Source: Colwellia sp.
GTDB lineage: Bacteria; Pseudomonadota; Gammaproteobacteria; Enterobacterales; Alteromonadaceae
DNA: 64,000 nt
Assembly: GCF_013215345.1 (NCBI RefSeq)
Contig: NZ_JABSOV010000010.1
Location: 1,564 to 65,563, forward strand
Reading direction: 5' to 3'
Part shown: piece after piece, positions 5,578-30,900 of the stretch
How positions within the stretch are numbered: the first letter of the stretch is position 1
How the letters are laid out: each line of letters begins with the position of its first letter
Translations under genes and position numbers: made by a program
Notes under the pieces: model-generated
What the model saw: the letters and a program-made list of their open reading frames with translations, nothing else
What the model was told of the DNA's origin: nothing
Databases searched by the model: none

Positions 5578-6591
5578 ATGATGAAATTTCAAGGTAACCA
5601 TATTCTATCGGTATCACAATTTGACCGAGAGGCTATCGTAAAGATTTTACAAATTTCCGCACAAATGGCACCTTATGCGTCACGACAAAAACGTTGTCAT
5701 GTGCTCGAAGGTGCGATATTAAGTAACTTATTTTTTGAACCAAGTACACGTACCCGTGTTAGTTTTGGTACCGCCTTTAACTTACTCGGCGGTTTTGTCC
5801 GTGAAACCGTTGGTCAAGAAAACTCATCACTAAGTAAAGGTGAATCTTTATTTGATACCGCGCAAGTGATCAGCGGCTATTCCGATGTCATTGCCATGCG
5901 TCATCCACAAATGCACTCGGTAGATCAGTTTGCTCTAGGCAGTACAGTGCCAGTTATCAATGGTGGTGATGGTGCCAATGAACACCCTACTCAGGCTTTA
6001 CTAGATTTATTTACTATTCAGTCTGAAATGATGCACTTTAATAAAGGCTTAGATGATTTAAATATTGTTTTGATGGGTGACTTAAAACATGGTCGTACCG
6101 TACATTCATTATCCAAATTACTCAGTCTTTATGACAATGTTAAAGTGACTATGGTGGCACCCAAGGCCTTACAAATGCCTGACAGTGTAATTTCAACATT
6201 AACTGATGCCGGTCATGAAGTGATTTTGACAGAAACTATGGCGGGAAATTTATCTGCTGATGTTATCTATCAAACCAGAATTCAGCAAGAGCGCTTTGCC
6301 AGCAAAGATGAAGCAGAATTATATCGCGGACATTTCAGTTTGAATAAGAGTGTTTACCAAAAATATTGTCAAGAAAATACCGTTATCATGCATCCATTGC
6401 CGCGTGACTCTCGCCCTGAAGCCAATGAATTAGATACAGATTTAAATGACTTAGATAACCTAGCTATTTTTAGGCAAGCACAAAATGGTGTTTTAGTGCG
6501 TATGGCCTTATTTGCCTTAACGTTAGGTGTTGAAGATCAAATCACAAATTACGAAAAGCCGGTAAACTGGTTCACAAATAAAAATACTTAA
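5578..6591 (+). CDS. pyrB: Aspartate carbamoyltransferase catalytic subunit (no adjacent pyrI)
   Basis: FEPSTRTR, HPTQALLD and HPLPR motifs. Confidence 0.95.
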   Translation: MMKFQGNHILSVSQFDREAIVKILQISAQMAPYASRQKRCHVLEGAILSNLFFEPSTRTRVSFGTAFNLLGGFVRETVGQENSSLSKGESLFDTAQVISGYSDVIAMRHPQMHSVDQFALGSTVPVINGGDGANEHPTQALLDLFTIQSEMMHFNKGLDDLNIVLMGDLKHGRTVHSLSKLLSLYDNVKVTMVAPKALQMPDSVISTLTDAGHEVILTETMAGNLSADVIYQTRIQQERFASKDEAELYRGHFSLNKSVYQKYCQENTVIMHPLPRDSRPEANELDTDLNDLDNLAIFRQAQNGVLVRMALFALTLGVEDQITNYEKPVNWFTNKNT

Positions 6592-6634
6592 TTGCCATTA
6601 TGGAGCTAGCCTGAGCATGGGCTATCTCCTTGTA

Positions 6635-6709
6635 TTAACGTTAGGTGTTGAAGATCAAATCAGCAATTATGAAAAACCAGTAAACTGGTTGAAAAATAAA
6701 AATGCTTAG
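6635..6709 (+). repeat. Diverged direct copy of the last 75 bp of pyrB (6517-6591)
   Basis: 66/75 nt identical by manual alignment; encodes LTLGVEDQISNYEKPVNWLKNKNA* versus LTLGVEDQITNYEKPVNWFTNKNT*. Confidence 0.95.
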
Positions 6710-16780: not shown

Positions 16781-17548
16781 GTGTTAAGTAATCAAGAGCA
16801 ACTTAAATACTCCCGCCAAATCATGTTGGATAAAATTGGCGAGCAAGGACAATTAGCACTGCGTAACGCTAAGGTGCTTATTTTAGGCGTCGGCGGCTTA
16901 GGCAATCCCGCCAGTTTATATTTAGCTGCCGCCGGTGTTGGCACCCTTTATCTTGCCGATGGCGATTGTATCGAGCTGAGTAACTTACCCAGACAGATCC
17001 TCTTTAGTGAAAGTAATATTAATGAAAATAAAGCTGACGTCGCCGCAGAGAAACTACAGCAACAATTTCCTGATGTAACTATTGAAGCTATTGATGAAAT
17101 GCTCGATGCAGAGTTATGTGAATATTATCTGCCACAAGTCGATTTAGTGCTCGATTGCTCTGACAACATTCAAACGCGTTACTTGATCAACCAAGCCTGT
17201 GTGCAACATAAAGTGCCTCTGATAGTGGGTGCTGCAACGGGCTTTGATGGCCAACAGCTCACCATAGACCCCCGAGATGACAGCAGTGCTTGTTACCACT
17301 GCCTTTTTCCTGCCAGTGAAAAAGCGCCGGCCACTAATTGTCAAACTGTTGGTATAATTGGCCCTGTATTAGCCATGATTGCCGGGATGCAAAGCTTACA
17401 GGCCATTAAACTGTTAACAGGAAATAAAGTGCAGCTTAACCAACTGAACTTACTCGATGGTCTAGCCAATCAATGGCAACAATTTAACATGAAAAAACAA
17501 AAAAGTTGCGTGGTATGTGGTACAAGCGATAAAACTATTAACGGCTAA
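16781..17548 (+). CDS. moeB: Molybdopterin-synthase adenylyltransferase MoeB (ThiF/MoeB family)
   Basis: RYSRQI-like KYSRQI, GVGGLG, SNLPRQ, two CxxC Zn motifs; Moco context. Confidence 0.9.
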   Translation: MLSNQEQLKYSRQIMLDKIGEQGQLALRNAKVLILGVGGLGNPASLYLAAAGVGTLYLADGDCIELSNLPRQILFSESNINENKADVAAEKLQQQFPDVTIEAIDEMLDAELCEYYLPQVDLVLDCSDNIQTRYLINQACVQHKVPLIVGAATGFDGQQLTIDPRDDSSACYHCLFPASEKAPATNCQTVGIIGPVLAMIAGMQSLQAIKLLTGNKVQLNQLNLLDGLANQWQQFNMKKQKSCVVCGTSDKTING

Positions 17549-17559
17549 TACCAGCTAAG

Positions 17560-17670
17560 AAAGTACAGCTTAACCAACTGAACTTACTCGATGGTCTAGC
17601 TAATCAATGGCAGCAATTTAACATGAAAAGCAAGCCAGTTGCACCGTGTGTGGTTCAAATAGTAGTTGAG
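17560..17670 (+). repeat. Diverged direct copy of the moeB 3' end (from 17426)
   Basis: First 25 codons differ at 4 positions, all synonymous; CxxC is retained (CTVC versus CVVC); ends in its own TGA. Confidence 0.95.
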
Positions 17671-17691
17671 CTAACCAACAAGATACCGCGC

Positions 17692-18258
17692 TTAATAACT
17701 ACCTAAAGTAAATTGGCACTTAGCACTGGTAATTATTAATTCAGTGCCGTTTTTTGTCTGTTGTTCTTTGGCAATAGCAGCCCATTGGTAATAGACATTA
17801 CGATGAACTTTTGCAGTTAAATTTCGTCGTACTGTCACATACAAGTCGCCACTTTCATTAACAATTAATGGGTGCTGTTTATCAAGGGTAAACTCATCAC
17901 CTAAGTTAGTGGTAACTTGCATAACAGTCTCTTTTTCATCTAGCCAGCGCCACAGGGTAAGGACAAAAGGAGCGTCATCCACCTGAATTTTCACTTTCTC
18001 AACCGGTGTCACTAAGAAATACTCGGCCATATTTTTAGATAAGTCGTCACTTACATCTTTGCTTACATCTTTAATAAGTACAGAAGCAAACATTTTTACC
18101 AGTGCTAAACGCTTAAAAATAGTGCCGTTGTAATACCAGTCGCCATTCGCTTTAATCTGTATATCAATTTCACCACAATAGGGCGGGTTCCATGACTCGA
18201 CTGGCGGTAATGATTTTTTACTGCCCGCAAGCTGAGCTGAGATTTTATCTAATGACAT
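17692..18258 (-). CDS. DUF1285 family protein
   Basis: PPVESWNPPYCGEIDIQIKANGDWYYNGT...YFLVTPVEKVKIQVDDAPF. Confidence 0.85.
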   Translation of the reverse strand: MSLDKISAQLAGSKKSLPPVESWNPPYCGEIDIQIKANGDWYYNGTIFKRLALVKMFASVLIKDVSKDVSDDLSKNMAEYFLVTPVEKVKIQVDDAPFVLTLWRWLDEKETVMQVTTNLGDEFTLDKQHPLIVNESGDLYVTVRRNLTAKVHRNVYYQWAAIAKEQQTKNGTELIITSAKCQFTLGSY

Positions 18259-30318: not shown

Positions 30319-30395
30319 GGTGGCTATAGCTCAGTTGGTAGAGCCCCGGATTGTGATTCCGGTTGTCGAGGGTTCAAGTCCCTTTAGCCACCCCA
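30319..30395 (+). tRNA. hisR: tRNA-His (GUG), including G-1 and encoded CCA
   Basis: GGTGGCTATAGCTCAGTTGGTAGAGCCCCGGATTGTGATTCCGGTTGTCGAGGGTTCAAGTCCCTTTAGCCACCCCA, 77 nt. Confidence 0.98.
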
Positions 30396-30900
30396 TTCTT
30401 TTCTTCCTTTGTAAAACTTATACTCTAAACAATCACGAGTGATTCCATTTTCGATTTACCGTGAATTCAAGTCCCTTTAGACAGCCCATCTTTTACTATT
30501 CCCATAAAACATTTAGAACTAGAAAGAATCACCAATGATTCCGTTATTCACTTACCGTGGATTCAAGTTCCTTTAGCCACCCCATCTTTTCTTCCTGTTT
30601 TAAACTTATACTCTAGACAATCACGAGTGATTCCATTATCGCTTTACCGTGGATTGAAGTCTTATTAGCCACGCCATTTTTTATCTCTATTTCAAATATA
30701 TTCCTGCTTAATTAAATCACGGGTGATTCCACTATTACTCTGCCGTGGATTGAATTTCCTTTAGCTACGCCCATTCTTTTATTATTCTCGTAAAACATTT
30801 AGAACTCGAAAAAATCACCAATAATGCCATTATTCATTTCCGTAGATTCAAGCTCCTTTAACTAGCCAGCCTTTTATATTCTTTGAAAAGCTCTAAACAA
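30396..30900 (+). repeat. Degenerate tandem array (period 92-97 bp), each unit carrying a tRNA-His 3'-end copy
   Basis: TT(C/G)AA(G/T) anchors at 30373 (tRNA), 30466, 30562, 30654, 30750, 30847; recurrent AATCAC-NN-(G/A)TGATTCC...TTACCGTGGA. Confidence 0.92.

What the first reader, a model, noticed from the sequence alone, without database searches (positions are those of the whole stretch)
17426..17670. moeB 3'-end echo preserving the zinc-binding CxxC
17560-17670 copies the last part of moeB. Over 25 codons all 4 changes are synonymous third positions; it then reads ASCTVCGSNSS* instead of KSCVVCGTSDKTING*. This is the clearest sign that the echo evolved under coding constraint, so it was once, or can become, the functional end.
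Basis: partly seen in the sequence, partly recalled or inferred. Interest (0 to 1): 0.65.

Follow-up and report, generated by a model that had tools for sequence, protein, structure and literature searches.

The report
Leftover duplicated end of moeB/thiF gene
Behind this deep-sea Colwellia's moeB/thiF-type gene lies the gene's own displaced original end, left by an old tandem duplication and a later small deletion that gave the working protein a new eight-residue tail; it is real and neatly traceable, but most likely an untranslated relic.

Summary
The repeat is real. Window 17426-17495 recurs at 17560-17629 with 67 of 70 bases identical. It is not an assembly error: seven other metagenome assemblies carry it unchanged, two sister Colwellia MAG species carry the same junction, and the C. 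piezophila isolate carries a longer form.

- The echo starts at 17522, inside the gene. It is the second unit of a tandem duplication (first unit 17399-17521).
- The junction lies right after CxxC-Gly. The present tail TSDKTING* is therefore the echo's QAIKLLTAN stretch read one base out of frame.
- The echo reads QASCTVCGSNSS* only after a 1-nt frameshift, and it also holds a 10-nt insert with a stop.

Relatives' working genes end like the echo, so the echo is the ancestral end. C. piezophila keeps a complete first copy, about 40 nt of filler and a fully open echo with the same odd insert. This genome's form is that one minus 60 nt.

The two copies are more alike within a genome (3-4 differences) than between genomes (12-15), which points to gene conversion. 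One population variant has a stop and a second frameshift in the echo, which points to decay. Collapsing the repeat here would remove the second CxxC.

Verdict: an ordinary relic with a well-resolved history. Similar echoes are common in this genome.

The parts
16781..17548 (+). MoeB/ThiF-family adenylyltransferase gene (255 aa). It lies just after modB/modC and ends ..KKQKSCVVCG-TSDKTING*.
   Evidence: ORF. NCBIfam best hit is the MoeB subfamily NF004281 at 248.8 bits (cut-off 266). Among solved structures it is nearer E. coli ThiF (232 bits) than MoeB (173 bits), and the alignment ends just after CxxCG.
17399..17521 (+). First unit of the tandem duplication. It is working coding sequence, from QAIKLLTGN through KVQLN..NMKKQKS to CVVCG.
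   Evidence: Coordinates and frames. Alignment to C. piezophila.
17521..17522 (+). Junction (TGTGGT|ACAAGCG). Relative to the C. piezophila arrangement, 60 nt are missing here: the old tail, its stop, about 40 nt of filler and the first 11 nt of the echo.
   Evidence: Alignment A2, columns 151-210. The same 24-mer across the junction is present in G055 and G059.
17522..17549 (+). Echo part A'. It is a diverged copy (20/27 identical, 6 of the 7 differences at third codon positions) of 17399-17425. Read one base out of register, it now encodes the gene's last residues TSDKTING and the stop (17546-17548).
17550..17559 (+). 10-nt insert (ACCAGCTAAG) found only in echoes. It breaks the echo's frame and places a TAA in it. 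C. piezophila has a 9-nt version that stays in frame.
17560..17629 (+). Echo part B', the 70-nt core. It is 67/70 identical to 17426-17495, with all 3 differences synonymous. One A is missing from the terminal A run relative to the sister species.
17630..17669 (+). Echo part C', the ancestral tail QASCTVCGSNSS plus its stop TGA (17667-17669). It is in a different frame from B' in this genome.
   Evidence: Its closest DNA matches are the working gene ends of L004 (91% over 34 nt) and L006 (88% over 33 nt).
17715..17755 (+). Terminator-like hairpin (GGCACT..AGTGCC) followed by a T run. It lies inside the 3' end of the convergent DUF1285 gene, so the echo probably sits in the gene's 3' untranslated region (inferred).
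   Evidence: Regex. The tool's own terminator scan did not list it because the loop is too long for its rule.
17692..18258 (-). Convergent DUF1285 gene, the native downstream neighbour in close relatives.

Best explanation
The echo is the displaced ancestral 3' end of the gene. It is the second unit of an old head-to-tail partial duplication and is now an untranslated relic in the 3' untranslated region.

History, in order:
1. In an ancestor of a deep-sea Colwellia clade, the last ~145 nt of the gene were duplicated in tandem with ~40 nt of filler. C. piezophila still has this form: a complete first copy with its own stop, then a fully open echo.
2. The echo acquired a 9-10-nt insert in a loop-coding stretch.
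3. In the ancestor of this genome and two sister species, a 60-nt deletion removed the first copy's tail, its stop, the filler and the echo's first bases. That fused CxxC-Gly to the echo one base out of frame and created the new tail TSDKTING*. The zinc-binding CxxC is kept, and family profiles and solved structures end there, so the protein should still work.
4. The 70-nt core of the two copies is kept alike by gene conversion, or by recombination with working alleles. The short flanks on either side of the core have drifted apart.
5. In this population the echo has begun to decay (1-nt deletion; in a variant, a stop and another deletion).

Steps 1-3 and 5 are read from sequence comparison. 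Step 4 and the lack of function are inferred.
For: - Anatomy: offsets between matching landmarks of the two units are 124, 134 and 133 nt, and the three echo parts lie in three frames.
- Direction: none of 24 congeners examined has an echo, and their working tails are of the echo type. The echo tail is followed by the native intergenic DNA.
- Reality: 7 of 8 independent metagenome contigs carry the identical echo. The same junction 24-mer is found in 2 more of 55 species of the genus.
- Longer form: C. piezophila shares the CCAGCTAAG insert, and the alignment shows a clean 60-nt gap in the window.
- Phylogeny: the tree of the gene's 5' part puts the four echo-bearing genomes in a clade with strain TT2012 and one C. 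psychrerythraea strain.
- Concerted evolution: core versus echo core differ at 3-4 sites within a genome, but at 12-15 sites between C. piezophila and the trio.
- Decay: variant L040 has TGG->TAG, TTT->TTA and a 1-nt deletion in the echo, in an otherwise identical background.
- Exclusions: no integrase on the contig, no reverse transcriptase in the genome, and no significant Rfam family match.
- Parallel case: the pyrB echo in the same window behaves as a 118-nt tandem unit with 1-3 copies across species, again with copies more alike within genomes.
Against: - All of at least 9 copy-versus-echo differences in the core are synonymous, whereas only 18% of random changes would be. One-way conversion plus neutral decay does not fully explain this.
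- The echoes of C. piezophila, G055 and G059 are still open through CxxC to a stop.
- A single origin requires at least one loss (strain TT2012). The gene tree rests on 615 nt with moderate support (89/77 and 94/91).
- The ~40-nt filler and the insert share a short motif that I cannot explain.
Confidence: 0.72

Rival explanations
1. Spare end kept by second-order selection. Recombination between the two 70-nt cores regularly collapses the duplication, and the echo tail then becomes the working end. Lineages whose echo is broken would throw off defective segregants, so the echo would be weakly selected to stay a valid CxxC end, acting as a reversible switch or reserve.
For: All core differences are synonymous in four genomes. 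Between G000 and G059 the first 5 tail differences are all third-position synonymous. The echo is open and CxxC-bearing in three of four species. Strain TT2012 inside the clade and, at the pyrB locus, G059 have single copies ending the echo's way, as expected after a collapse.
Against: In this genome the echo is frameshifted in 7 of 8 assemblies, and a variant has a stop codon. Collapse here destroys the second CxxC. The synonymous pattern can also arise from recombination with working alleles. No collapsed form of this species was seen, though read data were unavailable.
Confidence: 0.12
2. Scar of foreign DNA entry. Either an integrative element that carried its own copy of the gene's 3' end was later lost (as phage 21 and e14 do at icd in E. 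coli), or a diverged allele was imported with one homologous and one illegitimate joint.
For: The flanks of the core differ by about 26-35%, mostly at synonymous sites, as alleles from different lineages would. A' matches other species' working genes at 90-96%. There is ~40 nt of filler of unknown origin in C. piezophila.
Against: Only 0-40 nt lie between the copies in every genome seen. There is no integrase on this contig. Gene order modC-gene-DUF1285 is the same in relatives without the echo. The within-genome similarity of the copies fits conversion after an in-place duplication.
Confidence: 0.1
3. Assembly artefact from merging two haplotypes of a metagenome-assembled genome.
For: The genome is a 257-contig draft with 2.2% contamination. 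The C. piezophila scaffold breaks inside its echo.
Against: The same arrangement occurs in 8 separately assembled samples, 2 other MAG species and, in a longer form, an isolate genome.
Confidence: 0.01
4. Template repeat of a diversity-generating retroelement: a gene end plus a nearby non-coding copy.
For: Only the layout: a near-identical copy of a gene's 3' end lies just downstream.
Against: No reverse transcriptase anywhere in the genome. The mismatches are G/A, C/T and A/G, not adenine-specific. The target is a housekeeping enzyme.
Confidence: 0

Closest known systems
Partial tandem gene duplication leaving a truncated pseudogene copy, homogenised by gene conversion (concerted evolution of bacterial repeats)
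   Same: Head-to-tail units, an identifiable junction, a single copy with the same flanks in relatives, and copies more alike within than between genomes.
   Different: The working gene now borrows its last 8 codons from the second unit in another frame. The relic, not the working copy, holds the ancestral end.
Displaced gene 3' ends at prophage attachment sites (phage 21 and e14 in the E. coli icd gene; from my own knowledge, not checked in a paper here)
   Same: An intact gene with a slightly altered 3' end, followed by a displaced, mostly synonymously diverged copy of the original end.
   Different: In those cases a whole prophage with an integrase separates the copies. Here nothing does (0-40 nt), and no integrase lies on the contig.
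E. coli tRNA-linked repeats
   Same: Tandem units that start inside a gene and straddle its end. Copy number varies between relatives, as at the pyrB locus in this window.
   Different: Those involve tRNA genes rather than a protein-coding gene. Their origin is also unsettled.
E. coli ThiF and MoeB (structures 1ZFN/1ZUD and 1JW9)
   Same: Same fold family. Both CxxC pairs are present, and the alignment runs to just past the second CxxC.
   Different: The 8-residue tail after CxxCG has no counterpart. The protein scores nearer ThiF although the gene sits beside molybdate-transport genes.

Membership tests
Tandem partial gene duplication relic | The second copy is homologous to the first over a continuous stretch, head to tail, with no foreign element between. 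| tested here: met
   Parts A', B' and C' match A, B and C in order. Only a 10-nt insert interrupts them, and there is no spacer at the junction.
Tandem partial gene duplication relic | Relatives have one copy with the same flanks. | tested here: met
   24 congeners examined directly have no echo within 1.4 kb, and the closest ones have the same neighbours. Of 55 genomes in the genus, only 4, counting this one, show a second copy at this locus.
Concerted evolution by gene conversion | Paralogous copies are more alike within a genome than orthologous copies between genomes, despite a shared origin. | tested here: met
   3-4 differences within a genome against 12-15 between genomes in 69 nt. Shared origin is inferred from the shared CCAGCTAAG insert.
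Integrative-element attachment-site duplication | A recombinase gene or element body lies between or beside the two copies. | tested here: not met
   No PF00589 match on contig C2. The copies are 0-40 nt apart in all four species.
Diversity-generating retroelement (template/variable repeat) | A reverse transcriptase nearby and adenine-specific mismatches. | tested here: not met
   No PF00078 match in the genome. The mismatches are G/A, C/T and A/G.
MoeB (molybdopterin-synthase adenylyltransferase) as opposed to ThiF | A score above the curated cut-off of a MoeB model. | tested here: inconclusive
   NF004281 scores 248.8 against a cut-off of 266, and TIGR02355 scores 206 against 376.6. The ThiF model TIGR02356 scores 235.9 against 275.3. 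The protein is nearer the E. coli ThiF structure. No second full-length paralogue was found in the genome.
MoeB/ThiF family | Two CxxC pairs that bind zinc. | tested here: met
   CYHC and CVVC are both present and aligned to ThiF. Zinc binding itself was not tested.

The most novel reading that the evidence does not exclude
Colwellia genomes may carry a class of roughly 90-200-nt tandem units that straddle stop codons. At least 15 such loci occur in this genome, and the pyrB unit has 1-3 copies across species. These units expand, collapse and convert. The downstream units could then serve as spare, recombination-refreshed C-termini that are indirectly kept valid by selection, which would be a built-in way of varying or restoring protein ends. 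The echo studied here would be one such spare that has just been lost in this population.
Probability: 0.1. Interest if true: 0.6.

Novelty: new member of a known kind. Interest (0 to 1): 0.3.

Why it matters
The echo itself is a neutral relic, so it matters little for the cell. Its value is as a clean worked example. One locus shows, step by step across four species, how a tandem duplication, a small deletion and gene conversion can replace a protein's C-terminal tail with out-of-frame sequence while keeping the catalytic and zinc-binding residues. It also shows that 'synonymous-only' divergence of a non-coding copy need not mean that the copy is translated. The abundance of similar gene-end echoes in this genome and its relatives deserves a systematic look. 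For annotation, the gene is nearer ThiF than MoeB by sequence.

Tried and rejected
- Source of the present tail: I looked for it elsewhere in the genome by blastn-short and found only chance 13-15-mers. The tail turned out to be the echo's own A' read out of frame.
- Wider scans: the exact-pattern scan for the echo insert found nothing in JGI metagenome contigs. In the species-representative genomes it found only the three echo-bearing genomes outside the window.
- RNA families and signals: the Rfam search of 17300-17900 gave only a chance miRNA match at E = 0.41. The promoter/terminator scan gave nothing in the echo.
- Retroelement and integrase readings: rejected.
- Literature: a search for Colwellia with 'tandem duplication' found no paper on this. 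The comparative paper on piezophilic Colwellia (PMC7542103) does not mention duplications, repeats or pseudogenes.
- Polarising the three core differences with outgroups: one (GCC->GCT) is derived in the echo, and two are ambiguous.
- A nested two-duplication history, suggested by the motif shared between the C. piezophila filler and the echo insert, could be neither confirmed nor excluded.

Full report
**What is in the sequence.** The gene at 16781-17548 (+) follows modB and modC and encodes a 255-residue MoeB/ThiF-family adenylyltransferase. Window 17426-17495 recurs at 17560-17629 with 67 of 70 bases identical. Against the 1.4 kb downstream of the gene this match has E = 4.6e-30. The three differences (GTG/GTA, GCC/GCT, CAA/CAG) are all third-position and synonymous.

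**The echo is longer than reported.** A search with the gene's last 73 bases hit relatives' genes about 100-130 nt upstream of their stops. That showed the gene's own tail is homologous to an internal part of the gene. Exact landmarks are as follows.
- CAGGCCATTAAA lies at 17399 and its echo CAAGCGATAAAA at 17523, an offset of 124.
- AAAGTGCAG lies at 17426 and AAAGTACAG at 17560, an offset of 134.
- The first CxxC-Gly block starts at 17507 and the second at 17640, an offset of 133.

The echo is therefore the second unit of a head-to-tail duplication, with the first unit at 17399-17521. It has four parts.
- A' (17522-17549) matches A at 20 of 27 bases. Six of the seven differences are at third codon positions.
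- A 10-nt insert (17550-17559) carries a stop.
- B' (17560-17629) is the 70-nt core.
- C' (17630-17669) reads QASCTVCGSNSS and ends in TGA.

A', B' and C' lie in three different frames. This is because of the insert and a missing A in an A run.

**Consequence for the protein.** The junction TGTGGT|ACAAGCG falls directly after the Gly that follows the second CxxC. From there the gene reads the echo's QAIKLLTAN stretch one base out of register. This gives TSDKTING and a stop. Alignments to E. coli ThiF and MoeB structures and to the family profiles end just after this CxxC. All family-conserved residues are therefore kept, and only a variable tail is replaced. By sequence the protein is nearer ThiF (232 bits) than MoeB (173 bits). 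All curated MoeB and ThiF models fall below their cut-offs, and no second full-length paralogue was found in the genome. The name moeB is thus provisional.

**Which end is ancestral.** I examined 24 genomes of the same genus directly. None has an echo within 1.4 kb of the stop. Their working proteins end ..KKQ(K/A)SCTVCGS.., for example ..KKQASCTVCGSNNSPK in a C. psychrerythraea strain and ..KKQASCTVCGSS in strain TT2012. That is the echo's reading. The echo's stop is followed by the same intergenic DNA and convergent DUF1285 gene as in those relatives. The echo is therefore the original end in its original place, and the present tail is the novelty.

**Not an artefact, and not unique.** The exact protein is encoded on eight contigs from eight separately assembled deep-sea trap metagenomes. 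Seven carry an echo identical to the window's, including the missing A. A back-translated pattern for the new tail found the same 24-mer across the junction in two other species out of 55 in the genus. These are Colwellia MAGs DT_22 and ALOHA_DT_125. Both have the echo with the same insert. There the B' and C' parts read in one frame through CxxC to a stop, as ..KKQENCSVCGSKG* and ..KKQASCTVCGSNSSLS*.

[quoted passage not shown] Its first copy is complete (..CTVCGSNN*). About 40 nt of filler follow. The echo then starts further upstream (MQSLQAIKLLT..) and is open throughout. It carries a 9-nt in-frame version of the same CCAGCTAAG insert. That insert is absent from every working copy seen, so it marks a common origin of the echoes. 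The three-way alignment shows the window and DT_22 lacking one clean 60-nt block relative to C. piezophila. The block comprises the old tail, its stop, the filler and the first 11 nt of the echo. The window's arrangement is thus a deletion derivative of the C. piezophila arrangement. A tree of the first 615 nt of the gene places the four echo-bearing genomes with TT2012 and one C. psychrerythraea strain in one clade, with support 94/91. One origin plus one loss, in TT2012, would suffice.

**Why the core is so alike.** Within each genome, core and echo core differ at 3-4 of 69 sites. Between C. piezophila and the other three genomes, both the working cores and the echo cores differ at 12-15 sites. 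Given a common origin, this is concerted evolution, that is gene conversion between the two units. In the window the 27-nt A part is hemmed in by the junction and the insert, and the 26-nt C part ends at the junction. Both are probably too short for efficient recombination (inference). They have diverged to about 74% and 65% identity.

**Is the echo under coding constraint?** All of at least nine distinct core differences in the four genomes are synonymous, whereas only 18% of random single-base changes in this stretch would be. Between the window and ALOHA_DT_125, the first five tail differences are also third-position synonymous. One-way conversion followed by neutral decay does not predict this. 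Two explanations need no translation of the echo.
- DNA imported by homologous recombination from strains without the duplication would replace the echo rather than the first copy, because the echo is the copy contiguous with the downstream flank.
- Two-way conversion or occasional collapse would expose echo mutations to selection.

Against any strong constraint, this population's echo is frameshifted. In addition, one metagenome variant (L040), identical elsewhere, has a patch in the echo with TGG->TAG, Phe->Leu and another 1-nt deletion. Collapse of the repeat in this genome would give a product ending ..FNMKSKPVAPCVVQIVVELTNKIPRLITT*, without the second CxxC. Here the duplicated state is therefore locked in.

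**Other readings tested.**
- No tyrosine-recombinase gene lies on this contig, and nothing but 0-40 nt separates the copies in any genome. An attachment-site scar is therefore unlikely.
- No reverse transcriptase is present in the genome, and the mismatches are not adenine-specific. A diversity-generating retroelement is excluded.
- No significant Rfam family matches.
- A hairpin with a T run at 17715-17755 suggests that the echo lies in the gene's 3' untranslated region (inference).

**Context.** The genome holds many similar gene-end tandem echoes. A self-comparison found at least 15 further loci with periods of 86-206 nt and 75-95% identity whose first copy ends at a stop codon, or whose units span a gene junction. 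The pyrB echo in this window (6517-6709) is a 118-nt unit made of 74 nt of gene end plus a 44-nt hairpin spacer. It is present in 1-3 copies in different Colwellia species, with copies again more alike within genomes. The closest sister species has a single copy ending the echo's way. Earlier notes of this scan had listed the pyrB, mobA and moeB echoes and a tRNA-His 3'-half array. I checked only the pyrB and moeB cases.

**Verdict.** The echo is the ancestral end of the gene, left behind by a tandem duplication and a 60-nt deletion, kept similar in its core by recombination, and now decaying. This is a known kind of event with an unusually well-resolved history. Its interest is modest, and the genome-wide pattern of such echoes is the more promising lead.

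Noticed in passing
window 6517-6709: The pyrB-type gene end is followed by a 118-nt tandem unit (74 nt of gene end including the stop, plus a 44-nt spacer with an imperfect hairpin). The unit is present in 1-3 copies in at least 9 Colwellia species. Copies are more alike within genomes, and the closest sister species (G059) has a single copy with the last-unit type of end.
   Followed up: partly
whole genome G000, e.g. C1:50309-50480, C1:62530-62790 (three units), C13:52062-52408, C28:5549-5847, C72:1210-1456, C101:44070-44353, C177:4885-5181, C177:43044-43272, C183:1916-2258, C193:2082-2263, C218:3552-3719, C221:20423-20662, C223:7081-7255: At least 15 further short tandem echoes (period 86-206 nt, 75-95% identity) sit at gene ends or span gene junctions. 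Some echoes keep the reading frame and stop, and others are frameshifted. Whether this density is unusual for a bacterium was not tested.
   Followed up: partly
window 30320-30900: tRNA-His (30320-30395) is followed by four or five decayed copies of its 3' part at a 92-96-nt period. An earlier follow-up of this scan treated it as tRNA-linked repeats.
   Followed up: no
L040 (ENA metagenome contig), echo region equivalent to window ~17580-17660: A patch of about 11 differences is confined to the echo in an otherwise identical 380-nt background. It includes a stop codon and a 1-nt deletion, and its start matches the first copy's KKQKS coding. It looks like a recombination or conversion tract.
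   Followed up: partly
L036 (C. piezophila contig C20), reverse strand, first 400 nt: Between the echo's stop and the DUF1285 gene, C. piezophila has about 330 nt more than the window, with internal inverted-repeat-like stretches. This may be a small inserted repeat element. The main scaffold (C4) breaks inside the echo.
   Followed up: no
window 16781-17548: The gene called moeB is nearer E. coli ThiF than MoeB by sequence, and no second full-length paralogue was found in the genome. In more distant relatives (L027-L030) the orthologue seems to be followed by a short thiS-like ORF (judged by eye from the raw sequence, not translated or searched). Here it follows modABC. It may serve both pathways.
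   Followed up: partly
L035 ~1105-1145 and ~1150-1170 (C. piezophila): The ~40-nt filler after the first copy's stop and the echo-specific insert share a motif (TAAGC..CCAGCTA.G..AAAG). This hints at an older nested rearrangement that I could not reconstruct.
   Followed up: no
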